64,000 nucleotides of DNA from Pseudomonadota bacterium (GTDB lineage Bacteria; Pseudomonadota; Gammaproteobacteria; Ga0077536). The stretch lies in assembly GCA_043782755.1 (NCBI GenBank), contig JAYWAC010000199.1, positions 8,704 to 72,703 on the forward strand, read 5' to 3'. The translations under genes and the position numbers were made by a program. This document shows, piece by piece, positions 701 to 63,109 of this stretch. The notes beneath the pieces are model-generated. The model was given only the letters and a program-made list of their open reading frames with translations. It was not told the origin of the DNA and searched no databases. Position 1 is the first letter of the stretch, and the number at the start of each line of letters is the position of its first letter.

Positions 701-744
701 CAGCCAGGCGCCGCCGCCGCACTGATCATAGCGGCGGCCCCAGT

Positions 745-2847: not shown

Positions 2848-2876
2848 GCTCATTCCTCCGCGTTCGACGAGCGCAT

Positions 2877-3272: not shown

Positions 3273-3306
3273 AGTCAGTGTGTGCTTGCGTGCAGCATCC
3301 GCCTGA

Positions 3307-3765: not shown

Positions 3766-3838
3766 GGATCCCTCTTTCGAAGAATCTTAACCGCAATGCC
3801 GTCCACCTGGCGTGGGCGGCATTGCGACGCCGTGGGTC

Positions 3839-5842
3839 TCAGCTGGCGGCCGCCAGATAGGCCGCCTCGTCGAACGACGCCGGATAGTCGAAGTCGCTGA
3901 CCGTGATACGCCCGGCGCGAATGAGGCTTTCGGCATATTCGCCGCGATTGATCATCTTCAAGGGCGGCCGCGCGCCACGCAGCTGGTCGCGCAGCGCGCG
4001 CGTGGCATCCTCGTCCACTTCAAAGCTGCGGTTCTTGTCGCTCACCGTATTCAGCACCACGCCGTAGTCCTGGCGCGCACTCTCGACCGAGACCAGACCA
4101 CGCACTACGTCCATGCGCACCTTGTCGGTCACGCGCGCCAGCGGGTCACCCCAGCCGCCACCGCCGGGGGTCAGGATGCGCACGATATCGCCGGCTTTGA
4201 CCGGCACCGCTTCGCGCTTGTAGAGCACATGCTGCTCCTGCGGGGTAGCGGGATTGATGAGCGCGCCGCCGGAACGACCGGCCTGGCCACCATTGACGCC
4301 AAAGCAGGAGAAGATGGTGCGATAGGAAACCGTCAGGAAGTGGCCGTCGACCAGAATCTCGACGTCCTTGAGATAACCCAGACCACCGCGATAGGCGCCC
4401 GGTCCGCCGGAGTCGGGGAACATACCGACGCGATGCACAATGACCGGAAAGCGCTGCTCGATGAATTCGGTCGGCAGGTTCTTGGAATCGGGCACCAGAT
4501 CAACCGTGTCCGTGCCATCGGCGAAGGGCCGCCCGCCCGAGCCAGCGCCAAAGATTTCGCGATAGAGAAAATCCTTGCCGTCGAGATCCTTGCCGTAAAA
4601 ACCATAGAGCTGGATGCACTGCGAATCGCCGACCATCTGGCCATTGGTGGCCTTGGCCATGGCCGCCATATAGGCGCCTATCATGCGCAACATGCAGTCC
4701 ATGCGATCGGCGCCCGCAGCCGGATACTCGGCCGACAGCACTGTGCGCGGCGGCAGATAGGCTTTGAACACGCGGGTCAGACCTTCGTTGACGATCATGC
4801 CCGGCACGTGCGCTTTGACGAAGCCGCCTAACCACTTCGAGTAGTGACGGCCATCCATCACCCAGTTGACCGGGCCTGGTACCTGCGGATCGGTGCCGGC
4901 GAAATCGACGATGATCTTCTCGCGATCCTTGCGCACCGTGAGCTTGATCTTGATCGGCTTGTCGAGCGAGATGCCGTCGTTTTCGAGAAAGTCCTCGCCG
5001 ATGTATTCGCCATCGGGAATATGCGGCAGCGCTTCCTCGCGTACGATCTCCTCGCAGCGGTCCATGATGCGATAGAAAGCCGCCTCGACCACGTCGGTAC
5101 CATAACGGCGACACAGTTCCTCGACCCGGCGCGCAATGATGCGTGTGGCGCCGACAAAGGCATCGATATCGCCGCGCAGATCGTCCGGATAACGGCTGTT
5201 GCGCAGGATGATCTTCCAGGCCTCCTCGTTGCGCTCGCCCTTGGCGTAGAACTTGATCGGCGGTACCTGGATGCCTTCCTCGAACACCGTGGTGGCGGTC
5301 AAGGGCCAGCTGCCCGCGACCTTGCCGCCGACGTCATTACAATGGCCAAACACCTGGGAGAACCCGATCAGGCGTCCGTCGGAGAAGATCGGTACCACCA
5401 CGCAGAAGTCCGGCAAGTGACCGATGGTGCCACTCGACTCATGGATGTCGTTGTAGAGATACACATCACCTGCGTAAATCTCGTTCAGCGCGTAGTAGTT
5501 GCGTATCGGATCGGCGGTCGCCGCCCACGACACGCGCGTCACGCTATTGCAGTCGACGGTGTTCAGCGAGGCACGATAGTCATGCTGTTCGCGCACGATG
5601 GTCGAGACCGCAGTGCGTTCGACCGCCGCTTCGCCTTCGTCGATGGCGGCTTCCAACGCCCATTCGAGGACGTCGAGCGTGACACTGTCGATGCTGTCCT
5701 TGAGCGCGCGAATGCGCGGCCAGTGCTCGTCGTCGCGCGTGAAGCTCACTTTGCGATGCGGCGCGTAGTCGTCGGTCAGATAGCGCGACTCGTCAAAGAT
5801 GATCGAAGTCGCAAGATTTTTTTGCGGGCTGGGGGGTGTCAT
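3839..5842 (-). CDS. hyuB: Hydantoinase B / oxoprolinase family protein (HyuB-like subunit)
   Basis: About 668 aa from MTPPSPQK. Hydantoinase_B-like throughout (GGPGAYRGGLG...; DFCVVVPIF). Start ATG lies 4 nt after the HyuA stop. The listed 737-aa ORF has an implausible N-extension overlapping hyuA. Confidence 0.85.
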   Translation of the reverse strand: MTPPSPQKNLATSIIFDESRYLTDDYAPHRKVSFTRDDEHWPRIRALKDSIDSVTLDVLEWALEAAIDEGEAAVERTAVSTIVREQHDYRASLNTVDCNSVTRVSWAATADPIRNYYALNEIYAGDVYLYNDIHESSGTIGHLPDFCVVVPIFSDGRLIGFSQVFGHCNDVGGKVAGSWPLTATTVFEEGIQVPPIKFYAKGERNEEAWKIILRNSRYPDDLRGDIDAFVGATRIIARRVEELCRRYGTDVVEAAFYRIMDRCEEIVREEALPHIPDGEYIGEDFLENDGISLDKPIKIKLTVRKDREKIIVDFAGTDPQVPGPVNWVMDGRHYSKWLGGFVKAHVPGMIVNEGLTRVFKAYLPPRTVLSAEYPAAGADRMDCMLRMIGAYMAAMAKATNGQMVGDSQCIQLYGFYGKDLDGKDFLYREIFGAGSGGRPFADGTDTVDLVPDSKNLPTEFIEQRFPVIVHRVGMFPDSGGPGAYRGGLGYLKDVEILVDGHFLTVSYRTIFSCFGVNGGQAGRSGGALINPATPQEQHVLYKREAVPVKAGDIVRILTPGGGGWGDPLARVTDKVRMDVVRGLVSVESARQDYGVVLNTVSDKNRSFEVDEDATRALRDQLRGARPPLKMINRGEYAESLIRAGRITVSDFDYPASFDEAAYLAAAS

Positions 5843-43982: not shown

Positions 43983-44762
43983 TTATTCCTTGGCGCCGCG
44001 CTTGCGCGCACGGGTCTTGGGTGCATCGGCCGGTGGGTCGACCAATTGCATGAGTTTGTCGAGGTTGGCGAGCGAGTACATGTGTTGATAGATCAGATCG
44101 AGATAACCCTGGTCCATGAATTCCTTGAGCTGCTCGGGCTTAAGCTTCTGCAGGCGCTCGCGCGTCACACAGAAAAAGCCACTCAATGAGTAAGTGCCCC
44201 CAGAGTTTAGTGAAATATTCGCCTGGGTGGAATCCAGCAGGTCAGCCTTGACGAGGGCATCACAGAATCTGGTCGTGGCCTGGGTGGCAAGCAGGAAGTC
44301 CTGCAGAAATTTGACGCTGTTGGCGAGATAGGGGCTCTGCTCACCGCCCTCGGCCAGCAGACGCTCGCCCTCTTTGGCGGTGTTGAAGCCCGAATAGGTC
44401 TCGTCGATGCAGACCGTATATTGCTCGGGATTGGCATCGGTATTGGCCAGGATATAGGGATAACGGCGCAGGTAGGCCGGCACGTAGGTACCCTGCCAGG
44501 CGCCGTCGACGCCGATCAAGAGGTTCTGATCGGTGGCAATGCCGAGCAGCACCGTCGGCACCGCCACACCACTGCTGTCGCGCGCGAACACCACGGCATA
44601 TTCGCGCGCTGCGATCGCGAATTCGCTGGCGGCGAGATAGATGGAATTGGTCCCTGCGGCGAAGGAATAGCCTTGGTCGGAGTCGATGTACCAGTCGGCG
44701 TGGCGCTCGCGATTGAGCGCCGTGACGTTGCGGTACAGGAGCGGGAGTAAGGGTTCGGCCAT
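43983..44762 (-). CDS. SapC-family protein
   Basis: Matches the SapC family pattern as I recall it (YSFA, EF..AA..Y..VF, W.G.YVPAYLRRYPY.LA). Start ATG at 44762 is 1 nt after the TpsA TGA stop. Confidence 0.5.
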   Translation of the reverse strand: MAEPLLPLLYRNVTALNRERHADWYIDSDQGYSFAAGTNSIYLAASEFAIAAREYAVVFARDSSGVAVPTVLLGIATDQNLLIGVDGAWQGTYVPAYLRRYPYILANTDANPEQYTVCIDETYSGFNTAKEGERLLAEGGEQSPYLANSVKFLQDFLLATQATTRFCDALVKADLLDSTQANISLNSGGTYSLSGFFCVTRERLQKLKPEQLKEFMDQGYLDLIYQHMYSLANLDKLMQLVDPPADAPKTRARKRGAKE

Positions 44763-44763
44763 A

Positions 44764-47700
44764 TCAATACCGGCGATGCAGGGTCGGAAGGATGACGTCG
44801 CCACTCCAGATTACAGCGCCCTCGGCGTCGAGTCTGACGAGCCCAGCGAGCTGGTTGACGGCGCTCGGCGCCAGGACTTCGTTCAACAGTTCGGTGTCGG
44901 GCAGTTCCTCGAGTTCGTCGAAATCATCAGCCGGCGCCGCGTCTTTTTTGGCGGGCGGCGCAGTGGGCTTGGTCGTCGGGCGCGCGGCGGGTGCGGGACT
45001 CTGCTCCAGAGTCTCGAAACCTTCGTCGACATCGGCGGGCGGCGGCTCGGGCGCGGCCTTGACCGGCGGCGTCGCAGGCGCCTCCTCCAGCGGCGCGAAC
45101 AGGTCTTCGCTGCCCTCCTCCAGGGACGGCAGATCGGCGGCGGGCGCCGCCTTGCTGTCCTTGCCAGCCGCGGCGGCGGGCGGCTGTGCACCGGTGTCTG
45201 GCTTTTCCTCGGCCTCGATCACGTCCTGGAATTCGTCACCACCGACGTCGTTCTTTTTCTGCTTCTCGAGATAGGCGTGCAGCTGGGTCTGGTAGTCGCG
45301 ATAGCTGGCGAGTTCTGCGCGGTACTGGCTGAGCAGCGCTTCGCCCTTGTCCTTTGGTGTCGCGCCACTCGCCATCGATTTCTCAATGGCGGCAATGCGC
45401 TGATCGAGACCGTCAATCAAGGTGGCCAATTGCTCCTCGGTGACACTGGGCGCACAACCCTCGGCGTCTTCGCACTGATCCAGCGACTTGGCGATACCGT
45501 CGCCCATCACCCCGAAGAGCGTGAGGTCTTCCTCGAACAGCGAGGAATCGACGAAGGCCACGGCTTGCAGAATGGTGAGAATGGCCGCCGGGTTGGGAAA
45601 GGACGCGCGGGTGTTCTGCAACAGATTGGCCGGTGCACCAAGCGCGGTCAGCGAACCGATAAGAGCGGTGGCGGTGACGTTGGTGGTCGACGCTTGCGCG
45701 CGTGACCGAACGTTGAAGTCGATGCGGGTCTTGGTGGCGCGCGCACCCTGCGCGACCAGCACTTCGCCACCCGCCAGATTCATGATCATGTTGGTCGAGT
45801 TCTGCACTTCATTGGTCGCGGCCAGCATCACGCGCCCACCGGTGAAGGTCACGGTATTGCCGCTGGTGGGTGCACTGATATTGCCGAGCTTCACACCACC
45901 GGGTAATCCATCATTGCCGGCCTGCACCTTGTCGCCCAGCGCCATCACGACGATGGTGCCATCACCCGGCGCGCCGGCGCCGACGGTGATGTTGTTGCCC
46001 TTGGAAAAATCCACCGTGCTGCCGATCAGCAGCAGATTGCCACCGGTCAAGAGCGATTCCGAGACCGTGATGTAGTCGGCCGGTGCGGACAACACCGTAC
46101 CTTTCAGGACATCGCCACCGGGCGCCGCAGCGAATTGACCGCCGATGGCGAGCGTGCCCTTGAAGTTACCGAACTTGTCAGCGGCGATGTGACCGGGACC
46201 ATCAACCAGGTCGATGAACATATCGGTGTTGGCGGTCGGCACGATGCTGAGCGTCACGCCGACATCGGCCAAAACCTGGTCGTTGAAATCAAAGATGTTG
46301 CTGGAGGACGCCAGCTTGACCGTGTTCTTGATGGTCAAGGGGCCATTGAAATGCAGATCCTGTGCGCTGACATCGACACCCAGTATCGTGGCGCCGTTGA
46401 AATTTAGATTGCGTCCGGTGACGGCACCCTGCAGCTCGGCGTTGGCACCGAAGCGCACATCACGCGCAGTGATGTTGCCGCGCAGCAGGGTATCGCCGTC
46501 GTAGCTTTGATCGGCGCCATTGGTCACGACGTTGTCGAAAGTTGCCTTGCCGCCCGCGACGTTCGATCCGAAGGCGCCATTGACCGTCACGTTGCCGCGC
46601 ACGGTGATGTCACCACTGCCGGTCGCGGTCAAGGTCAGCGGCGCGTTGTTGTTGATGTCGCCGACCACACGCAGGCCGAGATTGCCGACGTCGACATTGC
46701 TCTGGGCGAAACTCAAGCTGCTGGCAGTGACCGTGCCAACGACAGACGCTGGCGCGCCCGGCACGCTCAACACGCCGTTGCCGCTGGTGGTCAGAGCGTC
46801 GACGCCGCTGAACGCCAATTGATCGCTGGCCGCGCCGGGCACACCGCGCAACACGCCGGCGCCATCGCTGCTCAAGATCCAGGTCGCATCGACCAGTGAC
46901 TTCAATTCGTCCTTGGCGCCGGCGCCCATGTTGATAGTGTTGGTGGTACCGCTAGGCGCACCGGTCAAGGTCACGGCGTCGTTGCCGCTGCCGAGAGTCA
47001 AGGTTTCGACACCGGAGAAATCACCGGCGAAGGTGCTGCTGGTGGCGTTCATGCCCGCGTTCGTAGCACTGCTGATGCGCGCCGTGATGGCGGAGGTATA
47101 GGCACTCACGTCGACCAGGTCATTGCCCGCACCGAGATTCAAGCTACCAGCCACGCGCGCGCCGGCGCCAAAGGTCACGGTGTCATTACCGCCATTGGTG
47201 AGGATATTGCCGGCCCAGGTCGTGCCGGCCTGCAGCGTGACCGCGTCGCCGCCGGTTTCGCTGAAGCCAGTGGTCAGGCTCAAGCCGGCGTCACCGATGT
47301 GATTGATATTGATGGCGGAAGTAGTGGCCGCACCGCTGCTGCCGGTGATAGTCACCGTCAGCGCGTTCGCGCCGGTCACGGTGAATTGATCGGCGCCACT
47401 GCTGCCCAGCATGAAGTTGTGGGTGCTGGCGGTGCCGGCGACGAAATCGCCGCCGTCGATACCAACGAACAACTGCGGCGTGATATTGGACGACCCTTCT
47501 TCCTTGAAGATGAAGATGTCGCGCTTGTTGCCGCCACGGATGCTGAAGTTCTCAAAGGTGGTAGTGGCGGTAGCAAAGGTATTGCCGTAACGGCCGCGAC
47601 CGTTGCCGGTGATAATCCACACGGTGTCGATGTCGGCACCCTGCAATTGCGTGCCATTACCGATCACCCCATCGACGTCGAAATAAGTACCGCTGATCAG

Positions 47701-50700
47701 CGGCAGATCGGGCGGGCTGCTGATGGTGGCATCACGCACCGTGCCGGCCTGGCCACTGCCGGAGTCGTTGTCGGTCACGGCATTGACCAACACCAGATCC
47801 GAACCACTGTAGTCAAGCGTGTCGACACCGGTGCCGAGATTGATGCTGCCTATCAGGCGTGAAAATTCGCCAGAACTGGGGTTGGTTGGCGGTGAAGTCT
47901 CATGTGCGCCAAACAACACCGTGTCATTGCCATTCTCACCGAGAATGTTGGCGGTCAAGGTGGTATTGCTGCCGCCGTTAGCGATGATGATGAACACATC
48001 ATTGCCCGCGCCGCCGGCCAATTGGCCGAAACTGAGTGCGCCGCCGGTCGCAGCGGTGAAGGTATCAACCGCGCTGCCACCCTGTAGATTTTCAAAGTCC
48101 GTGAAGGTGAATTCTGGCGTGCCGTCCGGCGCGCCGTTAGGCGTGTCGTCGATCGTGCCCGCGCCGCTGCCGGTCAGATCCCACGCACTCTGCTGGTTGC
48201 GGCCCACCAATTTGTCGTTGGTGGCGGCGCTACCGATGAAGGATTCAAAGCCACTGAAATTCGCGAAGGTCGAGCTGCCATCGGCGGCGCTGCCGCTCTG
48301 CAGATTGACGGTGACCGCAGTGCCGCGCGTCTGATAAGTGAAGGTATCAAGGCCAGCGCCACCATCGACATTGCCGCTCACCGATCCCGCCACGGCGATG
48401 GTCACGCTATCGGCGCCACTGCCACCTTGCAGTTGTTCAAAGCCGGAAAAGTCGAACTCAACTGAACTCGGTGCGCCGACCGAGGTGTCATCAATGGTGC
48501 CGGCATTGGCGCCGGTCACGGTCCAGTTGCTGTCGTTATCAGTGCCGATCAGCCTGTCACCGCTGCCACTGCCGCCGACCAAGGTTTCGATGTTGGCGAA
48601 GTTGCCAATGTCGGTTGCGGTGAGATTGGCGAGATCGATCGTGACGGCGGTGGCGCGCGTCCCATAGCTGAGAGTGTCGTGACCACCGAGGCCGTCGATG
48701 GTGCCGCTCAAACTGCCACCGGTAGCGAGATTAAAGGTGTTGGCGCCGGCATTGCCTGTCAGGTTTTCGATGCCCGACCAGGTGCCACTCAAACCAGATG
48801 CCGTGCCACTGTTGGCGCCAGTCACGGTGTAAGTGTTGTTGCCGGCGAGCGTATCGTTGCCAGCACCACCGATGACCGTCTCGACGGCGGTGAAACTATC
48901 GACCACCAGACCATTGCCTATGCTGCCGGCATTGAGCGCGGTGGAGATGAAATCGAGATCGACGCCAAGGCCGCTGGCATCGATGCGATCGCCACTCGAC
49001 GCACCACCGACAATGGTGAAACCGCCGGGCGCGGTCGCGCTGACGATTTCATCGATGTTGAAATTCGAGGCCGTGCCGCTCTGACCAAAGCTGGCATCGA
49101 GGCTACTGACGGTGAGCGTGTTGCTGGTGAAATTCAGATCGCGCGCGGCGACCAGCGTGAAGTTGTCGGTCGCGACGTCGGTATAGGGGCCGGCCAGGGT
49201 CAGCGCAGCGCTAGCACCGGTAGTACGAATATCGACGCTGTCGGCGCCTGCGCCGGTGTCAAGATTCTCGACTGTCAACGAGACCGCCGAGGTGACGAAC
49301 ACATCGCCGCCGGAAGTCGCCTCCAACGCACTGCCACCAGTCAAGGCCACTCCCAGCGCGTTGACGCGGCTCACACCAAGGGTGCTGCCAGCGTCAAGTA
49401 TCAGGTTGGCACCACCACTCTTGGCCAGCACCGCACCGGCGGTGTCGCGTATCGCGCCGCTGCCGGCGGTGATGGTCTGTGCACCCGCACCATTGAAGGT
49501 GCTGGTGCCGGCGCCCTGGAAGATCACATTGCGCGCGGCACTCAAGTCGCTGTTGGTGGTGATGTTGTCGGCGATGATCAAATCGTCGCCCGCGCTCTGC
49601 ACATCGATGTCGCCAGTGGCGGTGATGGCCGTGCTGCCGGCAAGGATGAGATTGCCGGCCGCGCCGGCGGTCTTGGTCAAGCCGACGGTCGACAGCGTGC
49701 CGCCCTGCGCGTCCAGAGTCTGCGCCACCGCGCCATCCAGCGTGCCGACGCCAGCGAGAGTGATATTGCCGCTGGCGGTCAAATCACCGGCCAGCTCGAA
49801 GGCGTTGTTGATCGAGAGGTTGCCGTCGTTGACCGCGACATCACCGCTGATGTGGATGAACGTCGGGCTGACCAAGGTGAGGTTGCCGTTCGACGCCTTG
49901 CTCAAGGAATCGATGGTCAAGCTGCCGCTGCCATCGGTGCCGGCACGCAAGGTTTGATTGGCGCTACCGCTGGCGGCCACCACCACAGTGATGCCGGACA
50001 AGTCGAGATCATCGGCCGCCGCCAATGAACCCAAGCCGAGGTCGAGCGTGCCACTGCCGCCACCGAGTGAGCCGATGGTGGCGTTCTGATCGTTGATGTC
50101 AAACGTTGCACCGACCGCGATCGTGATCGCACCGGCATTGCCGACGCCGCCGGCCGCACCGAGCTTGAGTACACCGGCATTGATCTGCGTGTCGCCGGCA
50201 TAGCTGTTGTTGCCGGACAGCACCAGGGTATCGGGTCCGATCTTGCTCAGAGTATTGCCGGCGCCACCGCTGATAGTGCCGCTTATCGTGAAATCGATAT
50301 TGCCTGCCGCGCCGTCGTCGACGTTGATAGTGGCGGCCGTGGCGAGATTCACCGCGCCGCTCAAGGTGCCTGTATTGCTCGCTTTCAAAGCGCCGCTGCC
50401 ACCATCGCCATTGCCGTTCAGGCTGAGATCCTCGTTGGAGGTGCCGGTGAAGGCGACTTCCAAAGTACCGCCATTGACGGTCGTGCTGCCGGTCGCGCTG
50501 CCGAGACTCGCGGTCGACGCGGCGCGCAGCGTGCCGCCCGAGATCAGTGTTACGCCGTTATAACTGCCGGTGCCGACGGTCAGCGTTTGGGTGCCGCTGC
50601 CTGACTTGCTCAGCGACAAAGTATCGCCACCGACTTCAGTGATATCACCTGCGTAGCTGCCGCCACCGCCGGAAATATCCAAGCTCGCGGTATCGGCGAC

Positions 50701-53700
50701 CGCCGCCGAATTGTTGGTCACTACACTGCCCGCCACGCCATCGAGCTTGCTGACAGTCTGATCGAAACCAGCGAGGTTGAAGATCGCCCCCGATGCCGTG
50801 AGGTTGAGGCCGCTGCTGTTGGCGAGCACATCGGCGACACCCGCTTTCAGCGTGCCCTGGGCGACATTGGTCGCACCGCTATAGGTATTGGCGCCATTGC
50901 TCAGCACCAAGGTGCCGGCACCGCTCTTGGTCAGACTGCGCGCGCCACCGCTCTCGCCGATGGCGGTGTTGATGGTCAAGGTGCCGGCGCCACCGAGGGT
51001 CGCATTGTCGATCAGCGTCACGCTCACGCTGTTCGCTAGCGAAGATGTACCGGTGGCGGTCAGCGCGCCGACGCCACCGTTACCGCTGCCGCTCAAATTG
51101 ACGCTCTCGCTACTCGCCAGCGCGAGACCGTTGAGATCGAGTGTACCGCCGTTGGCGGTGGTCTGGCCGGCGGTGGTGCCAAGACTGGCAGCGGTACTGA
51201 TGCTGAGCGTGCCGCCGCTGATGCTGGTGGCGCCGGCGTAGGTACCACTCACCACCGACAGACTTTGCGCACCGCTGCCAGACTTGGTCAGCGACAAATC
51301 GTCGAGAGCGTTCTGCGTGATGTTGCCAGCGTAGCTACCGCCACCACCGCTGATGGTCAGCGTCGCGGCGCTGCCGCCGCCACCTGCGTCATTGGTCACC
51401 ACGCTGCCAGCCACGCCGTCGAGTTTGGTGAGAGCCTGGTTGAAGCCCGCCAAATTCAAACGCGCGCCCGACGCAACACTCACACCTGAACTGTTATCGA
51501 GCACGTTGCCCGCGCCTGCCGCAAGCGTGCCCTGGGCGATCGTGGTGCCACCGGCATAGCTGTTGTTGCCGCTCAGTACCAGCGTACCTGCGCCGACCTT
51601 GCTGAGATTGCCGCTACCGCCGATCACCGCGTTGATGGTCAAGGTGGCGGTCGTACCGATAGCGCCCGTGCCCGTCAAGACGATGGCATTGCCGGCCGCC
51701 ACCGCGTTGCTGCCGATCAAGGCACCGGCGCCGCCCGCGCCGCTGCCGGTCAGATTGATGGTCTCACTGCTGGCCAGCGCGAGGCCGCCGAGATCGAGCG
51801 TGCCGGTGCTGGCGGTGGTCTGGCCGCTGGCGTTGCCGAGACTGGCGGCGGTGTTGATCAACAGTGTGCCGCCACTGACCGTGGTGGCGCCGTCATAGCT
51901 GCCGGTCGCGACGGCGAGAGTCTGGGTGCCCGATCCGGATTTGGTGAGCGACAAGGTGTCGCTGCCGTTCTCGGTGATGTCGCCGGAGAAACTGCCGCCG
52001 CCGCCGGTGATGGTCAAGGTCGCCACATCAGCGATGTTGCCGGCGTTATTGGTCACCACCGTGCCGGCCGCACCGTCGAGTTTGCCGAGCAGTTGGTCGA
52101 AGCCGGCCAGATTGAAGGTCGCGCCCGCGCCGTTCAGGATCAGACCCGAGGTCGCACCGAGTACATTGTTCGCGCCGGCCTGCAGGGTGCCACCATTGAC
52201 GGTCGTCGCGCCGCTATAGGTGTTGCCGCTGCCCGACAGGATCTGGGTACCGGTGCCGGCCTTGGTGAAGGACAAGGTGTCGGTGACGGTCTGAGTGATA
52301 TTGCCGGCATAGTTGCCGCCATTGCCGGTGATGGTGAAGGTCGCGACGTCACCGACATTGCCGGCGTTGTTGGTGACGATGGCGCCCGCCACACCCGTCA
52401 CGGCGACGATGGACTGATCGAAACCGGCGAGATTGAAGGTCGCGCCTGATGTCGTGAGATTGAGTCCCGCGCTATTGGTCAGGATGTTGGCGGCGCCGGC
52501 GGCGAGCGTGCCACCCGACACCGTCGTCACACCGGTATAGCTATTGGTGCTAGCGAGCACCTGCGTGCCGGTGCCGGACTTGGTCAAGGACAAGACGTCG
52601 TCGGCCGATTCGGTGATATCACCCGCGAACGAACCGCCGCCGGCGGCGATGGTGAGCGTGGCGGCGGCATTGCTGGTACCGACCGCATCGTCATTGGTGA
52701 CGGTGCCGGTGCCCGACAGCGAAGCGATGGTCTGGTTAAAACCGTGCAGATTAAAAGTCGTACCGGCGGCGAGGGTCAGATTGGTCGAGGCCGCGAGTGC
52801 GTTGGCGAGACCGATGGCGAGTACACCCTGGCTCAAGTCCAAGCCACCAAGCGTGGTGGCAACGCCGAGCTGCAGGGTGCCGGGACCGGACTTGGTCAAG
52901 GTGCCGGCGCCCGAGATGCCGACCGTGGTAACCGCGAGCGTGCCGGCGGCCTGGGAAATATTGGCGGTGCCTGCGCTCGTCATGACCATACCGCCGGTGA
53001 CGGTCGTGGTGCCTACTGTCGAGTGCAGCAAGGTCGGGTTGTTGCCGCCACTGAAGGTGATGGCGTCAGCGATGGTGGTGCCGCCGGGTGTGGCGAGTTC
53101 AAGGGTCGCGCCGGCGTTGGCGGCATTGTTGATGACGATGCCGCCACTGCTGCTGCCGAGACTGGCGGCGGTGGTGACTTTGAGCGTGCCGCCGGTGACC
53201 GTGGTCGCGCCATCGTAGGTGCCCGTGCCGACCGACAACACCTGCGTACCGCTAGTCGATTTGGTGACAGACAAAGTATCGGTGCCGTTCTCGGTGATGT
53301 TACCGGCATAGCTGCCGCCGCCGCCGGTAATGGTCAGGGTCGCGACGTCGCCCGTGCTGCCGACATCGTTGGTCAACACTGCGCCCGCCACGCCGTCGAG
53401 CTTCACTATCGATTGGTCGAAGCCGGCGAGATTGAAAATCGCGCCCGCATTGCTGATGTTGAGTCCCGCGCTCTGCGCGAGCAGATTTGCGACGCCGGCT
53501 TTCAACACGCCGCCGCTGATGGTGGTGACGCCCGTAAAGGTATTACCACCGCCGGACAAGATCTGCGTGCCGGTGCCGGACTTGGTCAGCGAGAAAGTAT
53601 CCCCACCGACCTCCGTCAAGTTGCCGGCGAAACTGCCACCGCCGCCGGTGATATTGAGCGTCGCGCTGTCGGCCACCGCCACTGAGTTGTTGGTGACCGT

Positions 53701-56700
53701 GGTGCCCGCCACGCCATCGAGTTTGGCGATGGCCTGATCGAAACCGGCGAGATTCAAACTCGCGCCAGCAGTGCTCAAGTTCACACCCGCACTATTGTCG
53801 AGGACATCGGCCGCACCGGCCACCAAAGCGCCCTGAGCGATGATGGTCGCACCGCTATAGCTATTGGCGGCATTGGCCAGCACCAGGCTGCTGGTACCGG
53901 CCTTGGTGAGACTGCGTGCGCCGCCGCTTTCGCCGATGGCGGCATTCATGGTCAAGGTGCCCGCGCCACCGATGGTGGCATCGCCGCTCAAGTTCACGGT
54001 ATTGGTCGCCGCCAGCGAGACTGTGCCGGTGCTGGTCAAGGCGCCGACACCGCCGTTACCGGTGCCGCTCAAATTCAAGGTCTCGGTCGAAGCCAAGGCC
54101 ACGCCGTTCAAATTCAAAGTGCCACCGTTAGCGGTAGTCTGTCCGGTGGCGGTGCCGAGGCTCGCGCCGGTGCTGATCGATAAGGTGCCACCGCTGATGG
54201 TGGTCGCGCCGCCGTAGGTACCGTTCACCACGGCCAGACTCTGGGTGCCCGTGACCGACTTGGTGAACGACAAGGTATCGCTGCCGTTCTCGGTGATATC
54301 ACCGGCGTAAGCGCCGCCGCCAGCGGTGATGGTCAGGGTCGCGACATCGCCAGTATTGCCAACGTCATTGCTCACCACCGCGCCCGCCACGCCATCGAGT
54401 TTAGCGATGGACTGATCGAAGCCGGCCAGATTGAGCGTCGCGCCGCTGACCGACAGATTGACGCCCGTGCTGTTGTCCAGCACGTTGGTCGCGCCGGCGG
54501 CGAGCGTGCCTTCGTTCACCGTGGTCGAACCGCTATAGCTATTGTTGCCGATCAAAGTGACGAGACCGGCACCGGCCTTGGTCAAGGAGCGCACACCGCT
54601 TTCGCCGATAGCCGCGTTGATGGTGAACACGCCCACGCTGGAGATAGTGGCATCAGCGGTCAAGGTGATGGTGTTGCTCGCGGCGATCGATGACACACCG
54701 GTGCCGAGCAACGCGCTGCTGTTGCCGAGGCTGATGGCCTCGCTGCTGGCGAGATTGAGACTGCTGAGATTAAGCGTGCCGCCATTGACGAGCGTGCCGC
54801 CGACGGCGGTGCCGAGACTCGCGGCGGTGGTGATAGTGAGCTCGCCGCCGGTGACGCTGGTAACGCCATCATAGCTGCCGGTGCCGACCGACAAGGTCAA
54901 CACGCCACCAGTGGATTTGGTCAGCGACAAGGTGTCGGTGCCGTTCTCGGTGATATCACCGGCGTAGGTGCCACCACCGGTAACGGTGAGCGTGGCGCTA
55001 TTGGCGGTGTTGCCGGCGTCATTGGTGACGACGCTGCCCGCCACGCCGTCAAGTGCATCGACGGTCTGATCGAAACCGGCCAGATTGAAAGTCGCGCCGG
55101 CGGCCGTGAGGTTGAGATCGCCTGGACCAAGTACATTGTTCGCACCGGCCTGCAAAGTACCGCCACTGACGATGGTGTTACCGGTGTAGGTACTGCCGCC
55201 ACCGGACAAAATCTGCGTGCCGGTGCCGGACTTGGTGAGCGTCAAGATATCGCTGCCGTTCTGCGTCAGGTTACCCGCGAAGCTGCCGCCGCCAGCGGTG
55301 ATGGTCAAGGTCGCGACATCGGCACTGGCGCCAGCATCGTTGATGACGACCGTGCCGGTCACGCCATCGAGTTTCTTCAAGCTTTGATCAAAACCCGCGA
55401 GATTGAATCGCGCACCCGACACCGAGAGATTGAGTCCACTGCTGTTATCGAGCACATCGGCCGCGCCCGCTGCGAGCGTGCCGGCGCTGACCGTCGTCGC
55501 GCCGGTGTAGGTGTTGTTGCCCGCCAGGATCAGACTGCCCGCGCCGATCTTGGTGAGCGCGCGCGGACTACCGCTTTCGCTGATCACCGCGCCTATCGTC
55601 AGCGTGCCCGCGCCGCCGATCGACGTATCGCCATCCAGCACCACGCTATTGCCGCTGTCGATCGAGGCCGTGCCGGTTTCGCTCAATGCGCCGATGCCCG
55701 CGTTGCCAGTGCCGCCCAAATGAATGGTCTCGCTGCCGCTCAAGGAAACGCCATTCAATTCCAAGGTGCCGCCATTGGCGGTGGTCGCACCAGTATTCGA
55801 ACCGAGACTCGCGGCGGTGATGATGCTGAGGGTGCCGCCGATGATGGTGGTAGTGCCGTCGTAGCTACCCGTCGCCACCGACAGACTCTGAGTGCCGGTG
55901 CCCGACTTGAGCAGTGACAGGGTATCGCTGCCGTTCTCGGTGATGTCACCGGCATAGCTGCCGCCGCCGCCGGTGATGGTGAGCGTGGCCGTATCGGCGC
56001 TCGCGCCCGCGTCATTGGTGACCACCGCACCCGCCGCGCCATCGAGTTTGGCAATCGATTGATCGAAGCCCGCCAGATTGAATACGCCGCTCGCACCCAT
56101 GTCGAGACCCGTGCCATTGGTCAGCACGTTCGCGATGCCCGCTTGCAAGCGACCAGCGCTGACATGGGTCAGGCCGTTGTAGTTCTGCGCGGCGGTCATG
56201 ACCAAGCTACCGGCACCGATCTTGGTCAAGGACAAACTGGCCGCGCCATCGCTGAGTGCACCGACCTCCAACACGCCGCCGGCGTTCGCCACGTCGATCG
56301 TGGTGTCGTCGGTGGCACCGACGTTGGTCAAGGTTATAGTCCCCGACAAGGTCAGGGTATTGGCAGTCGAATGTCGCAGCGCGGCCGAGCCACCGCCATT
56401 GCCTTCGATGCTGAGGTTTTCAGCGATGGTGGCGTCCGCACCCAAGGCAAATTCGAGCTGTGCGTCGTTGGCCACCGTGGTGCCGCCCAGCGCGTCGCCG
56501 AGACCGCCCGCATCGGTGACCTTGAGCAGGCCGGCGTTGACCGTAATGGTGCCCGCCGCGCCGATGAAGTCGGCGGAATTGTCTGCCGCCAGGACCAGGG
56601 TGCCGCTGCCGGTCTTGGTCAGCGCGCGCGTGCCGCCGTTATCGATCGTGGTCAAGAGCGTGAGTGTGCCGCTGCCACCGATGGTGGCATTGCCGCTCAT

Positions 56701-59655: not shown

Positions 59656-59907
59656 GCGGTCGCTCCTTCCTCGGCATTCGAGATCGATCGAATGTCCGTG
59701 GCCCATGATGGTGTGCGGGCCGTGTTGTAGTGTGATTCAAGCGCCGCACATCGGCGGGCGGCTGAGAAACTGCCGCGCTTAACATAGTGCGCGCCCCAGC
59801 TACGCGAAACCGTTACATATTCCCGCATACCCGCCGACGGCGGTGTGCAGGCCTTGCGCACCTTACCGTCACGTCCTCCGGTCTGACGCCGCACACCCGT
59901 TCCTCGC

Positions 59908-61938
59908 TCAGAAGAACAGGTTGAAATCCAGCCAGTATTTCGGTCCCCAGCCGCCTTGCGGACGCGGGCTGCTGCCGACCGGTGCGGCCATGGTGAGCTT
60001 GGTGGAAAACCGCTTGGGATTATTGAACGACAGTGCGACACCGACGGAATTGAAATTCCCAGATTTGCGTTCGGTGGGCGTGAGCGCGCTGTTCAGATAG
60101 CCCGAAGCGACATCGTAAAACATAGAAAACTGCACCAGCTCGCCCCAGGTGCGATTGCCGAAAGCCGGCACGTCGGAGATAAACGGGGCGTTGATGATCC
60201 ACTCCACCGAACCGAAAATAGCGCGATCGAACAATTTCTCGGTTGGACGATAGCCGCGCACGTTGTCCGGACCGCCGACGTCGTATTGCTCGAGCGGTAC
60301 CAGCAGATCGGGCGACCACATCACCTCGGTGGTGAACAGCAGGTTGTGATTCTTGAGTTTGTCCCACAGCGGCGTCAGTGCCTGGAAGCGCGACAGTCGC
60401 AGCATGACCTTGTTGAAATCGCCTTCGGCGAACTTGCCGTTGCCGCCTTGGCGGGTCGGCGGTACGAAGGCTGGGTTCTTGCCCATCGCGCCGAACAGAT
60501 CATTAAAACCGTGGGAGATCTCGAGACTGCCGGTATTCAGTCCGCCAAAGCGCGCATCGACCGAATCGAAATTGAATTCACCCGAAGCGACCGCCAAGCT
60601 GTCGATGTTCTGCTTGCGGCCATCGGCCTTGGTGCCGCTGCGTTTCTTGGCAAAGCGCGCGGTGGCGCTGAAATTCATTAGGCGGCTGCGGATGAAACTC
60701 TTGGTCAACGAGACGTTGTAGTTGCGAATGTCGCTGTGGATTTTGGCGTCGCGAAACTGACCGCCGACGTCGAATTGATTGCGGTCCGCGCCGAAGCCGA
60801 GCTGGGTGTCATATAGCAGCGGGATCGGGATCTGATAATCGAGCGCATAGAACCAGGTGTTGGCCGGCGCCACGGTGCGCTGGATGGTGGTGGTGAATTT
60901 GTCGCCCTGACCGAGCGGATCGTTGACCGTCACGCGGCCGAGCTCACGATTGAGGCCGGTCTCGCGGATGCCATGGTTGTCCCAACGCAAGGCCGCCTCG
61001 ACACGCTTCTCGTCCTGCACCTTCAACATCATGTCAGCGCTACCGACGCGGGTGCCGGGCTGGAACACACCGAAAGACGACAAGCCCGGGTTGTCCGACA
61101 CGGTGAGCAGCGCGGTCTCAATCGATTCCTTGGTCACCGGCTCGCCAACGAGCTTGCCGAATGGTCGCGTTAGCACGGCGGGCTTGTACATCTTGTTGCC
61201 CTCGGTCACGACTTTGCCGAGCACGCCTTCCATGACCTGAATCTTGACCTCGCTACTTTCCACCGACTGCACCGGCACAAAGGCTTGCGCCAGGATCAGG
61301 CCATGGTCGCGGTAGTACTTAGTGACGGTGTCGGCTACTTCCTGCAGGCGACCGACGGTGAAACCGTCCGGCCGCTCAGCGAGTTTGGCGTCGATCAGGG
61401 CCTGCACCTCAGCGACCGCGATGTTGTGCTTGGGCCGGTCGATGACGCCTTCGAGCACGAAGCGCTTGACCTCGACCTTGTCGCCATCGTCGATTTCCAA
61501 AGGCCTGTCGGCCAGTGCCGGCACCGAGAAGGTCTCGGGCGGCGGTGCCTTGGGCGGCTCGCGCGGCTTCTCGCCGGGTCGGATCGCGCCGGGCTTGGCC
61601 GCGTCGGGGAGATCGACGGCGGCCGCTAACGAGCTTTCATTGACGGCCATGGCGGCGGCCAACTCGGGGCGCGCCGGGCCGGGCCGCGCGCTCGGCACTG
61701 CGGCAGAAGACGCAGGAGAAAGTTCTTGTGTAGCCACCACTTGCGGACCAGCCACCGACATATCGAAGGCTGGACGGATGGCTCCGGGACGGGCCGTGGC
61801 GAGATTGTCATCTGGTTCGACGACGGCGGCAAACGACAGGCTCGCACGCGCCACGATGCCTGCCATGCAAAGTGCATGCAGGCAGCGCAACGCTGGCCCT
61901 CGCCTAGAGTCGCCCACTATATGCATAAGACCATTCAA
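59908..61938 (-). CDS. TpsB outer-membrane transporter (ShlB/FhaC/HecB family; POTRA domains + 16-strand barrel)
   Basis: POTRA region VKRFVLEGV...; conserved loop-6 VRGY motif (DNVRGYRP); C-terminal ...YWLDFNLFF aromatic terminus. Start codon uncertain (MNGLMH / MHIV). Confidence 0.85.
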   Translation of the reverse strand: MNGLMHIVGDSRRGPALRCLHALCMAGIVARASLSFAAVVEPDDNLATARPGAIRPAFDMSVAGPQVVATQELSPASSAAVPSARPGPARPELAAAMAVNESSLAAAVDLPDAAKPGAIRPGEKPREPPKAPPPETFSVPALADRPLEIDDGDKVEVKRFVLEGVIDRPKHNIAVAEVQALIDAKLAERPDGFTVGRLQEVADTVTKYYRDHGLILAQAFVPVQSVESSEVKIQVMEGVLGKVVTEGNKMYKPAVLTRPFGKLVGEPVTKESIETALLTVSDNPGLSSFGVFQPGTRVGSADMMLKVQDEKRVEAALRWDNHGIRETGLNRELGRVTVNDPLGQGDKFTTTIQRTVAPANTWFYALDYQIPIPLLYDTQLGFGADRNQFDVGGQFRDAKIHSDIRNYNVSLTKSFIRSRLMNFSATARFAKKRSGTKADGRKQNIDSLAVASGEFNFDSVDARFGGLNTGSLEISHGFNDLFGAMGKNPAFVPPTRQGGNGKFAEGDFNKVMLRLSRFQALTPLWDKLKNHNLLFTTEVMWSPDLLVPLEQYDVGGPDNVRGYRPTEKLFDRAIFGSVEWIINAPFISDVPAFGNRTWGELVQFSMFYDVASGYLNSALTPTERKSGNFNSVGVALSFNNPKRFSTKLTMAAPVGSSPRPQGGWGPKYWLDFNLFF

Positions 61939-62080: not shown

Positions 62081-63109
62081 TTAGGGCTGGACGGCAGCAG
62101 TCGGCGCGGCGGCCGGTGCCGGCGCGGCCTGCTTGATGAGATCCTGACGCCAAGTCTCGAGCGCGTCGGCAGCCGGCGCCTCGACCGGATACTCTTTCTC
62201 TATCTTCTCGATCGCGGCCTGACGGACCTTGGCCATCGCTTCCTGCACCATGCGTGCGCGCAACTGATCCCGTACGCGCTCGAAGTCCAGCATCTCCGCT
62301 TCAACGGTCGCGCCACGTTTCAAGATATGCAGGCCAGTCTCGGACGCTATCGGCTCGCTGACCTGGCCAGTCTTGAGTTTCTTCAGGGCCTCGGCTATCG
62401 GCGGCAGCAGATCGGCCGATTTGAGCAAGCCCATGTAGCCATCGTTGACGCGGCTCGCCTCGTGAGCGGAATACTGCTTGGCCAGCGCGCCAAAATCGCC
62501 CTTGCCGCCACGCAGCTCGTCGGACACGCGGTTGGCCCGCGCCCAGGCAGTCTTGACTTCCTTATCGGGCGCGGCGGGATCGAGCGGGATAAAGATCTGC
62601 CACAGATGCACTCGCTCCGGCACGCGGAAGGCATCGGGATTCTTGTCATAGGCTTCGCGCACCTGGCTGTCGCTCGGGAATTTCGGATCGAGATTCACGC
62701 GTACCACCTGATTCAGATAGGACTCGACCAGCACACGCTGGCCGGCACGCTCCATGACGGTTTTGATCTGCGCGTTCTCATCAGCCTTGTTGGCATAGGC
62801 CGCCTTCAAGACCGCCTGATTGAGGGTTTCCTGATGCACGAACTGTTTGAAGACATCGGCGGAAGTCAGGATCTCGTTGCGACGCGGTGCATCGACGATA
62901 CTCAATACCTCGCCGAGCAGCTTGGCATCCAGCGTGGCGGTCGTGGAGCGGGTTTTAGCTTCGCTGGCGGCCGCTTTTACGGCGGGGGTATGTGGCTCTT
63001 TGGCCGCTGCGATCGTGTCGGGCGCGAGCAGGAAGCGCTGGCCGAGTGCGCCAGCAACGATGAGTAGCGCGCCGAACAAGAGTGCGGCGGGGGTCGACAG
63101 ATTTTTCAA
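62081..63109 (-). CDS. Parvulin-type peptidyl-prolyl cis-trans isomerase (SurA/PpiC-like periplasmic chaperone, N-terminal membrane anchor)
   Basis: N-terminal hydrophobic anchor PAALLFGALLIVAGAL; rotamase domain HLWQIFIP...GDFGALAKQYS...GYMGLL...GLHILK. Apparent TTG start. Confidence 0.72.
   Translation of the reverse strand: MKNLSTPAALLFGALLIVAGALGQRFLLAPDTIAAAKEPHTPAVKAAASEAKTRSTTATLDAKLLGEVLSIVDAPRRNEILTSADVFKQFVHQETLNQAVLKAAYANKADENAQIKTVMERAGQRVLVESYLNQVVRVNLDPKFPSDSQVREAYDKNPDAFRVPERVHLWQIFIPLDPAAPDKEVKTAWARANRVSDELRGGKGDFGALAKQYSAHEASRVNDGYMGLLKSADLLPPIAEALKKLKTGQVSEPIASETGLHILKRGATVEAEMLDFERVRDQLRARMVQEAMAKVRQAAIEKIEKEYPVEAPAADALETWRQDLIKQAAPAPAAAPTAAVQP

What the first reader, a model, noticed from the sequence alone, without database searches (positions are those of the whole stretch)
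46900..48900. RTX-like GGxGxD calcium-binding nonapeptides embedded in a TPS (T5bSS) substrate
Motifs GGAGNDTLA, GGSGSGDRL, GGSGADSVT, GGAGLDTFT, GGSAVDTFT, GGAGNDVFI, GENGNDTVL, GGNDTVTFG and GAGNDLVDV occur within about 70-aa units (..WTVTGANAGTIDD...FSGFE.LQGG.G.D). RTX repeats are characteristic of type I secretion substrates, which need a C-terminal T1SS signal. Here they sit mid-protein in an N-terminally targeted TpsA, implying calcium-dependent folding of a beta-roll module after TPS export. I am not aware of this domain mix being common.
Basis: partly seen in the sequence, partly recalled or inferred. Interest (0 to 1): 0.6.

Follow-up and report, generated by a model that had tools for sequence, protein, structure and literature searches.

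The report
RTX-like calcium-turn repeats in a TpsA
A giant two-partner-secreted surface protein carries a 700-residue block of spaced-out, RTX-related "calcium-turn" repeats; this block is not the classic toxin-type repeat, and the same combination occurs in many unannotated giant proteins of environmental bacteria.

Summary
The nine quoted motifs are real and sit at aa 3613-4200 of a 4,980-aa ORF (44764-59706, minus strand). That ORF is a genuine TpsA, with an N-terminal TPS domain and a ShlB/POTRA TpsB gene next door.

The motifs are far above chance: GGxGxD occurs 4 times against 0.22 expected, and 0 of 2000 shuffles reach that. Only 4 of the 9 fit GGxGxD. None are in tandem at 9-residue spacing. 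PF00353 gives no hit, and my own tandem-nonapeptide HMM scores -33 bits.

The real unit is a super-repeat of about 100-115 aa, not 70. There are three clear copies (aa 3605-3935) and degenerate remnants to about aa 4306.

A profile of the region hits the solved CyaA RTX domain (E 4e-18) and serralysins (E 3e-6). AlphaFold models it confidently (pLDDT 90) as short strands flanking the Gly/Asp turns. The best PDB fold matches are almost all calcium-binding RTX proteins, although TM-scores are low.

So this is an RTX-related, probably Ca2+-stabilised solenoid, but not a canonical beta-roll.

The domain mix is not rare. The module has 21,205 cluster representatives. Of the top 148, 47 have an N-terminal TPS domain, and three of these that I checked have adjacent TpsB genes. 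The TPS-bearing proteins almost never carry tandem nonapeptides (1/47 against 31/101).

The type V and RTX reviews I searched do not mention the combination. Interest is moderate.

The parts
44764..59706 (-). TpsA exoprotein gene, 4,980 aa
   Evidence: Single ORF. Orthologues at 73-78% identity with the same synteny are in L001, L002 and L003/P0346.
58759..59487 (-). TPS secretion domain (aa 74-316)
   Evidence: PF05860 E 1.3e-36 on the N-terminal 500 aa. TIGR01901 E 2.9e-21. The full-length scan misses it.
50152..57609 (-). Shaft of PATR / autotransporter-type beta-strand repeats (about aa 700-3185)
   Evidence: PF12951, 18 stretches, E 5.5e-84. TIGR02601, 21 stretches, E 2.2e-97. Extent estimated by motif search.
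46789..48921 (-). RTX-like long-period repeat module (aa 3596-4306), the object of the finding
   Evidence: This is the only part of the protein matched by the module HMM (aa 3596-4306, 720 bits). Profile hits to CyaA RTX and serralysin. It is strongly acidic, at -7.2 net charge per 100 aa.
47902..48894 (-). Three well-preserved super-repeats (aa 3605-3702, 3703-3816, 3817-3935). Each has three Gly/Asp turns: A = U-x-x-I-E-x-L-x-GGxGxD-x-L-x-G followed by a W-x-V-T-G-A-N-A-G-T hairpin; B = F-x-G-F-E-x-L-x-GGxGxD-x-F; C = I-D-GGxGxD-T-L-x-Y...V-x-V-x-L
   Evidence: 34-47% pairwise identity and 115-177 bits against their own HMM. AlphaFold pLDDT 90.2, pTM 0.88, with 3-5-residue strands on both sides of each turn. 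Foldseek top hits are 7rah_E and 7usl_C at prob 1.00.
46789..47901 (-). Degenerate remnants of the same repeat (aa 3936-4306), including the quoted GGNDTVTFG and GAGNDLVDV
   Evidence: Weak matches to the super-repeat HMM (3-7 bits). pLDDT 45-80. Conserved 70-79% with the L002 orthologue.
45607..46788 (-). Beta-rich C-terminal passenger segment without the motif (aa 4307-4700)
   Evidence: Translation. No module HMM match. Only sub-threshold Bactofilin and pentapeptide-like Pfam hits.
44767..45606 (-). Acidic, helical and Pro/Ala-rich tail (aa 4701-4930) plus a highly conserved last 50 aa
   Evidence: Net charge -11.8 per 100 aa. The last 50 aa are 92% identical to L002, against about 74% overall.
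59908..61938 (-). TpsB outer-membrane transporter
   Evidence: PF03865 ShlB E 2.9e-23 and PF08479 POTRA_2 E 9e-11. 64% identical orthologue upstream of P0346 in L003.
62081..63109 (-). Parvulin-type PPIase upstream of tpsB on the same strand; a possible periplasmic chaperone
   Evidence: PF00639 E 1.4e-17 and PF13145. Its C-terminal tail is conserved upstream of tpsB in L003.
43983..44804 (-). SapC-family gene immediately downstream, conserved in the orthologous loci
   Evidence: PF07277 E 8.9e-66. 71-88% identical in L001, L002 and L003 at the same position.

Best explanation
The region (aa 3596-4306 of a 4,980-aa TpsA) is a long-period, RTX-related repeat module. Each super-repeat of about 100-115 aa contributes three GGxGxD-type Gly/Asp turns, each flanked by short beta-strands. 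The turns are separated by a beta-hairpin (W-x-V-T-G-A-N-A-G-T) and by a 'D-T-L-x-Y...V-x-V-N-L...F-x-x-I-E' connector.

Shown here:
- It is homologous at profile level to the RTX domain of CyaA and to serralysin C-terminal domains.
- It is predicted with high confidence to be an all-beta solenoid whose nearest solved relatives are Ca2+-binding RTX proteins.
- It lacks tandem nonapeptides.
- It lies in a protein exported by a two-partner (type Vb) system.
- The same module is a common building block of giant TpsA proteins.

Inferred:
- The protein crosses the inner membrane by Sec. It is threaded unfolded through the TpsB barrel, possibly helped by the co-encoded parvulin PPIase.
- The Asp at position 6 of each turn, together with backbone carbonyls of stacked turns, binds Ca2+. 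That would neutralise this very acidic segment and lock it into a rigid solenoid at the far end of the PATR-repeat shaft.
- Its role would be a calcium-stiffened extension or presentation segment of a surface fibre or adhesin, not a type I secretion element.
For: TPS system: (TPS domain, TpsB).

Motif enrichment: (0/2000 shuffles).

Repeat anatomy.

Homologues: 80 hits, many named 'Ca2+-binding RTX toxin-like protein' and carrying PF00353 or PF08548 elsewhere in the chain.

Profile against PDB sequences: CyaA RTX 3.8e-18 and 1e-12, serralysin 3e-6, MpAFP 1.9e-4.

Structure: AlphaFold pLDDT >90 over aa 3609-3930, and 90.2 with pTM 0.88 for the trimmed model. Foldseek top hits are mainly RTX proteins (CyaA fragments, AprA/PrtC/serralysins, 6sus, 3p4g). 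Classical autotransporter helices are not significant (IcsA E 0.79).

Conservation: the Asp of the B turn and the flanking Gly, Leu and Phe are >=90% conserved across diverse homologues (A1 positions D177, D292, G172, G287).

Charge: the regular part carries -8.5 net charge per 100 aa, against -3.9 in the PATR shaft.

Spread: 21,205 representatives at E<=1e-3. 47 of the top 148 have an N-terminal TPS domain at E<=1e-55. TpsB genes lie next to P0346, P0202 and P0214.

No type I secretion genes among the ORFs scanned across the 64-kb window.
Against: - PF00353 and NCBIfam do not recognise the region.
- Only about half of the turns in this particular protein keep the full GGxGxD. One B turn has Asn instead of Asp (GNAGAN, aa 3651). 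The motifs are only partly conserved between orthologues.
- Foldseek TM-scores to RTX structures are low (0.2-0.35), so the similarity is local, not global.
- AlphaFold places no ions, and I could not inspect coordinates, so the geometry of the putative Ca2+ sites is unverified.
- Periplasmic Ca2+ tracks the medium (my own knowledge, not checked here). Ca2+ therefore cannot act as the cytosol-versus-outside switch it is in type I secretion.
- No experiment bears on function.
Confidence: 0.72

Rival explanations
1. Canonical RTX beta-roll: tandem GGxGxDxUx nonapeptides forming the classical 18-residue-per-turn roll of type I substrates, transplanted into a TpsA.
For: Four perfect GGxGxDxU nonapeptides are present. 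There is profile and fold similarity to CyaA and serralysin RTX domains.
Against: - No two motifs lie at 9- or 18-residue spacing.
- PF00353 gives no hit at E<=10.
- A tandem 4x9 HMM run with --max gives -33 bits overall and only single-turn matches. The positive controls score 63 to 1,489 bits.
- The module lies 670 aa from the C-terminus.
- No ABC or MFP genes were found among the ORFs scanned in the window.
Confidence: 0.05
2. An ordinary beta-solenoid with Gly/Asp-rich turns that no longer binds calcium. On this view the motifs are evolutionary remnants of an RTX-type ancestor and serve only as tight turns in a passive spacer.
For: About half of the turns are degenerate (GNAGAN, GSAATND, GGSAVD, GLGGHD). 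The C-terminal copies are eroded. Motifs drift between orthologues. pLDDT is lower beyond aa 3935.
Against: Asp at turn position 6 is kept in 9 of the 10 turns of the regular part. It is >=90% conserved at two B-turn columns across the family. The segment is the most acidic beta-rich part of the passenger, which is hard to fold without counter-ions. All close structural matches are Ca2+-loaded proteins.
Confidence: 0.2
3. The module is a ligand-binding head rather than a structural stalk. It would sit just before a periplasmically retained C-terminal prodomain, like the mature C-terminal domain of FhaB, with the protruding W-x-V-T-G-A-N-A-G-T hairpins forming the binding face.
For: Its position is at the distal end of the shaft. 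It is followed by an acidic Pro/Ala-rich tail and a very conserved last 50 aa. Each repeat has a conserved aromatic hairpin.
Against: In many other TPS-bearing proteins the same module fills nearly the whole passenger, for example aa 551-4304 of 4,511 in P0211 and 736-5473 of 5,715 in P0214. That fits a shaft better than a head. No homology to the FhaB prodomain was tested or found.
Confidence: 0.15
4. Chance clustering of G/D-rich peptides in a Gly-, Thr- and Asp-rich low-complexity protein.
For: The protein is 17% Gly throughout.
Against: 0 of 2000 shuffles reach the observed counts. The preceding 3,602 residues, which are equally Gly-rich, have zero GGxGxD. There is significant homology to thousands of proteins and to solved RTX domains.
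Confidence: 0.01

Closest known systems
RTX domain of Bordetella adenylate cyclase toxin CyaA (PDB 7usl, 7rah, 6sus)
   Same: Best sequence-profile hit (E 3.8e-18) and best fold hit (prob 1.00). The shared grammar is 'GGxGxD-T-L/V-x-Y ... I-E-N-x-x-G-S-x-x-x-D-x-L-x-G'. From the printed alignment, in CyaA this falls at repeated IENxxG-type sites that I read as the starts of, and links between, its nonapeptide blocks.
   Different: CyaA has long tandem nonapeptide blocks, is secreted C-terminus-first by a type I system, and needs a C-terminal signal. Here there are no tandem blocks, only the 'linker-like' grammar repeated every 100-115 aa. Export is by TpsB. TM-score is only 0.3-0.35.
Serralysin / alkaline protease C-terminal beta-roll (1kap, 1sat, 1go7, 1h71)
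   Same: GGxGxD turns flanked by short strands, which is the Ca2+ beta-roll paradigm. Profile E 3e-6. Foldseek E 1.6e-3 to 1e-2.
   Different: In serralysins the period is 18 residues per coil with Ca2+ on both edges, they are type I substrates, and they hit PF00353/PF08548, which this region does not.
MpAFP / region IV of the Marinomonas ice-binding adhesin MpIBP (3p4g)
   Same: A one-sided Ca2+-bound solenoid with a longer repeat of about 19 residues, consensus xGTGNDxUxUxGGxUxGxUx (recalled from my own knowledge). By eye, the 21-residue stretch from turn B to turn C here (GGSGADSVTIAVAGSVSGNVD) fits that pattern. Profile E 1.9e-4. Foldseek E 0.03.
   Different: MpAFP is a regular tandem 19-mer array in a type I-secreted adhesin. 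Here such coils alternate with hairpin and connector insertions.
FhaB/FHA and other TpsA exoproteins (type Vb)
   Same: N-terminal TPS domain, adjacent TpsB, a very long beta-rich passenger, and a Pro-rich C-terminal tail.
   Different: Three T5SS/TPS reviews that I text-searched contain no mention of 'RTX', so no RTX-type passenger is described there. Here the shaft is built of PATR/autotransporter-type repeats followed by the RTX-like module.
Unnamed family of long-period RTX-like repeat proteins, usually annotated 'Ca2+-binding RTX toxin-like protein' or 'beta strand repeat-containing protein'
   Same: The same super-repeat consensus. 21,205 cluster representatives. The window protein is a member.
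   Different: About two thirds of the top members lack a TPS domain, and many of those add canonical tandem nonapeptide blocks.

Membership tests
Canonical RTX repeat proteins (PF00353 HemolysinCabind; type I substrates) | Tandem GGxGxDxUx nonapeptides at a 9-residue period | tested here: not met
   No pair of motifs lies 9 or 18 aa apart. A tandem 4x9 HMM with --max gives -33 bits, while positive controls give 63 to 1,489 bits.
Canonical RTX repeat proteins (PF00353 HemolysinCabind; type I substrates) | PF00353 match at or above the gathering score | tested here: not met
   No PF00353 hit at E<=10 on aa 3503-4369 or on the full protein. Full-length scans of such proteins are unreliable, since they also missed the TPS domain. 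The fragment scan is the valid test.
Canonical RTX repeat proteins (PF00353 HemolysinCabind; type I substrates) | Sequence homology to solved RTX domains | tested here: met
   Profile A1 against PDB sequences: 7usl_C 3.8e-18, 7rah_E 1e-12, 1h71 3e-6, 3p4g 1.9e-4.
Canonical RTX repeat proteins (PF00353 HemolysinCabind; type I substrates) | Parallel beta-roll fold with Gly/Asp turns between short strands | tested here: inconclusive
   The confident model (pLDDT 90.2) has 3-5-residue strands on both sides of each turn. The best Foldseek hits are mainly RTX proteins. However, TM is only 0.2-0.35 and I could not inspect coordinates.
Canonical RTX repeat proteins (PF00353 HemolysinCabind; type I substrates) | Ca2+ binding that drives folding | not testable with these tools
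   Only indirect support: conserved position-6 Asp and strong net negative charge.
Canonical RTX repeat proteins (PF00353 HemolysinCabind; type I substrates) | Type I secretion: ABC transporter and MFP genes in the locus, repeats close to a C-terminal signal | tested here: not met
   No ABC, HlyD or TolC families among 28 neighbouring ORFs scanned across the 64-kb window. The module ends 674 aa before the C-terminus.
TpsA exoproteins (two-partner secretion, type Vb) | N-terminal TPS domain | tested here: met
   PF05860 E 1.3e-36, aa 74-316. TIGR01901 E 2.9e-21.
TpsA exoproteins (two-partner secretion, type Vb) | Cognate TpsB (Omp85-type barrel with POTRA domains) encoded alongside | tested here: met
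   PF03865 and PF08479 in the ORF 59908-61938 directly upstream on the same strand. This arrangement is conserved in L003.
TpsA exoproteins (two-partner secretion, type Vb) | Sec signal peptide ahead of the TPS domain | not tested
   A hydrophobic stretch LALLPGLVATFASAPLAAAP precedes the TPS domain in the translation. No predictor was run.
TpsA exoproteins (two-partner secretion, type Vb) | TpsB-dependent secretion | not testable with these tools
   This needs an experiment.
Long-period RTX-like super-repeat family (unnamed) | A unit of about 105-110 aa with three GGxGxD turns, a W-x-I-T-G-x-N-x-G hairpin and a D-T-L-x-Y...V-N-L...I-E connector | tested here: met
   Three copies at aa 3605-3935. 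The consensus is shared with 80 homologues and with 16 TPS-bearing giants. 21,205 representatives.
MpAFP-type one-sided Ca2+ solenoid (MpIBP region IV) | Regular tandem array of 19-residue repeats | tested here: not met
   Only isolated 21-residue coils between turns B and C. Weak profile and fold hits to 3p4g.

The most novel reading that the evidence does not exclude
RTX-type calcium-driven folding may not be exclusive to type I secretion. A large, essentially unannotated class of TpsA exoproteins may use a long-period RTX-like repeat, in some of them along nearly the entire shaft, as a Ca2+-dependent extracellular folding element that helps pull the chain through TpsB.

The near-absence of canonical tandem nonapeptide blocks in TPS-bearing proteins (1/47 against 31/101, p = 2.5e-5) could reflect selection against repeats that would fold too early in the Ca2+-containing periplasm. 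It could also reflect selection against repeats that fold in the wrong direction (C to N).
Probability: 0.2. Interest if true: 0.7.

Novelty: new variant of a known kind. Interest (0 to 1): 0.45.

Why it matters
What powers translocation of huge passengers across the outer membrane in type V secretion is still debated. There is no ATP or proton gradient there, and the favoured idea is that folding on the outside drives it.

A TpsA passenger whose folding could be switched with calcium would give a direct experimental handle on that idea. One could secrete with and without Ca2+, or mutate the position-6 aspartates.

The result also shows that textbooks and domain databases tie 'RTX' too tightly to type I secretion. 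The long-period RTX-like module is invisible to PF00353. Full-length Pfam scans of these giant proteins even miss the TPS domain. RefSeq calls at least one clear example (WP_196137586.1, Aliikangiella) a 'hypothetical protein'.

For this particular locus the practical message is modest: it is a giant calcium-stiffened surface fibre of an uncultured gammaproteobacterium.

Tried and rejected
- Pfam and NCBIfam on the region gave nothing.
- Pfam on full-length giants is unreliable. The TPS domain was missed in the window protein and was reported in only 3 of 16 TPS-bearing relatives. I therefore used fragment scans and my own HMMs.
The single-protein scan of genome contigs returned one orthologous MAG contig.
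- The homologue search with the TPS domain returned only short fragments (530 aa or less), so it said nothing about domain architectures.
- Model coordinates are not exposed to scripts, so I could not measure the geometry of the Ca2+ sites.
- Literature searches for TpsA plus RTX, calcium or beta-roll found no paper describing the combination. The hits were about FhaB-CyaA interaction or were genome surveys listing both systems separately.
- A type I origin was considered and rejected: no type I genes among the ORFs scanned in the window.
- Chance was rejected.
- A SapC literature search gave nothing useful for this locus.

Full report
**What is at the coordinates.** The finding (46900-48900) lies inside one minus-strand ORF, 44764-59706, encoding 4,980 aa. 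It corresponds to aa 3603-4269. All nine quoted peptides are there, starting at aa 3613, 3711, 3761, 3782, 3876, 3898, 3923, 4172 and 4192.

They are not a composition artefact. Within aa 3603-4269, GGxGxD occurs 4 times against 0.22 expected (0 of 2000 shuffles). A looser turn pattern occurs 8 times against 0.49 expected (0 of 2000). The 3,602 preceding residues are equally Gly-rich and have none.

Only four of the nine are true GGxGxD, and no two are 9 or 18 residues apart. The repeat unit is not about 70 aa. There are three clear super-repeats of 98-119 aa (aa 3605-3702, 3703-3816, 3817-3935), with 34-47% pairwise identity. Eroded copies follow to about aa 4306-4320.

Each unit has three Gly/Asp turns:
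- Turn A is 'F-x-x-I-E-x-L-x-GGxGxD-x-L-x-G', followed by a 'W-x-V-T-G-A-N-A-G-T' hairpin.
- Turn B is 'F-x-G-F-E-x-L-x-GGxGxD-x-F'.
- Turn C lies about 21 residues after B and is 'I-D-GGxGxD-T-L-x-Y', followed by a 'V-x-V-x-L' connector.

**The host protein and its locus.** The protein is a bona fide TpsA:
- TPS domain PF05860 at aa 74-316 (E 1.3e-36) and TIGR01901.
- A shaft of 18-21 PATR/autotransporter-type repeats over about aa 700-3185.
- A ShlB+POTRA_2 TpsB gene directly upstream (59908-61938), preceded by a parvulin PPIase gene.
- A SapC-family gene directly downstream.

None of the 28 neighbouring ORFs scanned across the window belongs to a type I secretion family; those that matched a family are metabolic enzymes or a cell-wall transpeptidase, and three matched nothing.

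Orthologues at 73-78% identity occur in three gammaproteobacterial or 'Pseudomonadota' MAGs. They share the order TpsA, SapC, (Sel1), leuCD, and L003 also shows TpsB upstream.

**Is it RTX?**

Against:
- PF00353 does not hit the translated region even at E<=10, and NCBIfam has nothing.
- I built a tandem 4x9 nonapeptide HMM from 158 canonical blocks. Run without filters it gives the whole protein -33 bits, with only single-turn matches of up to 13 aa. Control proteins score 63 to 1,489 bits.

For:
- The 80 homologues of the region are mostly 'Ca2+-binding RTX toxin-like' proteins. Many carry PF00353 or PF08548 elsewhere in the chain.
- A profile of the region plus 20 homologous segments hits the solved CyaA RTX domain (7usl_C, E 3.8e-18; 7rah_E, 1e-12), serralysins (3e-6) and the Ca2+-dependent antifreeze solenoid 3p4g (1.9e-4).
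- In the printed alignment, the module's 'I-E-x-L-x-GGxGxD' and 'GGxGxD-T-L-x-Y' elements pair with CyaA's 'IENxxGSxxxDxLxG' and 'GGAGxDTVxY' segments. I read those as the parts that start and link its nonapeptide blocks.

**Predicted structure.** AlphaFold gave pLDDT >90 for aa 3609-3930 in the long model. It gave pLDDT 90.2 and pTM 0.88 for a trimmed model of aa 3600-3935. The model is all-beta, with 3-5-residue strands on both sides of every Gly/Asp turn and a longer hairpin at each W-x-V-T-G motif.

Foldseek against the PDB returns mainly Ca2+-binding RTX proteins at the top:
- CyaA fragments, prob 1.00, E 4e-6 to 8e-6.
- AprA, PrtC and serralysins, about 1e-3 to 1e-2.
- 6sus and 3p4g.

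Classical autotransporter helices are not significant. TM-scores are low (0.2-0.35), so this is a related but distinct architecture.

The Asp at turn position 6 is kept in 9 of 10 turns of the regular part. It is >=90% conserved at B-turn columns across the family. The segment carries -8.5 net charge per 100 aa, twice that of the PATR shaft. I could not examine coordinates, and ions are not modelled, so calcium binding is inferred and not shown.

**How common is the combination?** A profile search of 1.84 billion cluster representatives found 21,205 proteins with the module at E<=1e-3, and 3,062 at E<=1e-30.

I built a TPS-domain HMM from 98 relatives and scanned the 148 best representatives. 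47 (32%) have an N-terminal TPS domain (E 1e-55 to 1e-114, residues about 15-330). This fraction comes from the top of a list seeded with a TpsA, so it should not be extrapolated to the whole family.

Three of the 47 were checked in their genomes, and each has a ShlB-type TpsB next door:
- P0346, an orthologue.
- P0202, which is RefSeq WP_196137586.1 from Aliikangiella sp., annotated 'hypothetical protein'.
- P0214, which has 65 GGxGxDxU turns and sits at the same Sel1-leuCD position.

In many of these proteins the module fills almost the whole passenger.

It is, however, hidden:
- PF00353 hit only 1 of 16 such proteins.
- Full-length scans reported the TPS domain itself in only 3 of those 16.
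- The precomputed Pfam field is empty for the three proteins I looked up.

It is also absent from the literature I could search. A TPS review and two type V reviews contain no mention of RTX. The main RTX review defines the family by type I secretion. Targeted searches found nothing.

**An unexpected pattern.** Among the 47 TPS-bearing proteins, only one has a run of three or more 9-spaced motifs, and four have any such pair. Among the 101 without a detectable TPS domain the counts are 31 and 49 (Fisher p = 2.5e-5 and 9e-7). The comparison is not phylogenetically corrected, and some 'TPS-negative' entries are N-terminally truncated. Taken at face value, two-partner substrates use the long-period module but avoid canonical tandem blocks.

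**Most likely mechanism.**
- Shown: an RTX-related repeat module sits at the distal end of the passenger of a TpsB-dependent exoprotein.
- Inferred: after Sec export and threading through TpsB, the acidic module binds Ca2+ at stacked Gly/Asp turns. The B-to-C coil resembles the one-sided Ca2+ solenoid of MpAFP. The module then becomes a rigid extension of the surface fibre.

Ca2+ is present in the periplasm as well as outside (my own knowledge). The switch therefore cannot work as in type I secretion. Premature folding would have to be prevented kinetically or by chaperones, for which the conserved parvulin gene is a candidate. A role as a folding ratchet is possible but unsupported.

**Verdict.** The segment is RTX-related, probably calcium-stabilised, and not a canonical beta-roll. 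The domain mix is widespread yet unannotated and undescribed in the sources searched. I rate it a new variant of known kinds, of moderate interest.

Noticed in passing
window 43983-44804 (-); L001 13186-14001; L002 6888-7703; L003 14652-15377: A SapC-family gene (PF07277) immediately follows the TpsA gene and is conserved there at 71-88% identity in three orthologous loci. It is absent next to the distant TPS-bearing relatives P0202 and P0214. Its function is unknown.
   Followed up: partly
window 62081-63109 (-); L003 2-169: A parvulin-type PPIase gene lies upstream of tpsB on the same strand, and its tail is conserved upstream of tpsB in L003. It could be a dedicated periplasmic chaperone for the giant substrate.
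   Followed up: partly
window 44767-45606 (-), aa 4701-4980: The TpsA ends with an acidic, helical and Pro/Ala-rich segment (net charge -11.8 per 100 aa). Its last 50 aa are 92% identical to the L002 orthologue, against about 74% overall. The layout recalls the FhaB prodomain (Pro-rich region plus conserved extreme C-terminus). Homology was not tested.
   Followed up: no
window 50152-57609 (-), aa ~700-3185: The shaft of this TpsA is built of PATR / TIGR02601 repeats (18-21 copies). These are named for autotransporter passengers, not for the usual filamentous-haemagglutinin repeats.
   Followed up: no
whole TpsA (44764-59706) and proteins P0202, P0214, P0346, alignment A2: Full-length hmmscan of giant repetitive proteins misses clear domains. 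TPS was not reported for the window protein and was reported for only 3 of 16 relatives. The precomputed Pfam fields are empty for the three proteins looked up. Database domain architectures therefore under-report such combinations.
   Followed up: yes
L005 5001-22148 (P0214) and L004 5001-17450 (P0202): P0214 (5,715 aa, 65 GGxGxDxU turns and none in tandem) sits next to Sel1 and leuCD, like the window gene. It may be a positional orthologue in which the RTX-like module has replaced most of the shaft. P0202 is RefSeq WP_196137586.1 from Aliikangiella, labelled 'hypothetical protein', and a T6SS Hcp gene lies nearby.
   Followed up: partly
representatives P0201-P0348: Canonical 9-spaced nonapeptide runs are strongly depleted in TPS-bearing carriers of the module (1/47) compared with carriers lacking a TPS domain (31/101). 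The comparison is not phylogenetically corrected.
   Followed up: partly
window 1-41000: The rest of the window encodes mainly catabolic and housekeeping enzymes: hydantoinase A/B, PQQ dehydrogenases, P450, biotin carboxylase with carboxyltransferase, Rieske oxygenase, aldehyde dehydrogenase, enoyl-CoA hydratases, and leuCD. There are no secretion genes among them. GC is an even 0.58-0.65, so the TPS locus shows no compositional sign of recent transfer.
   Followed up: partly
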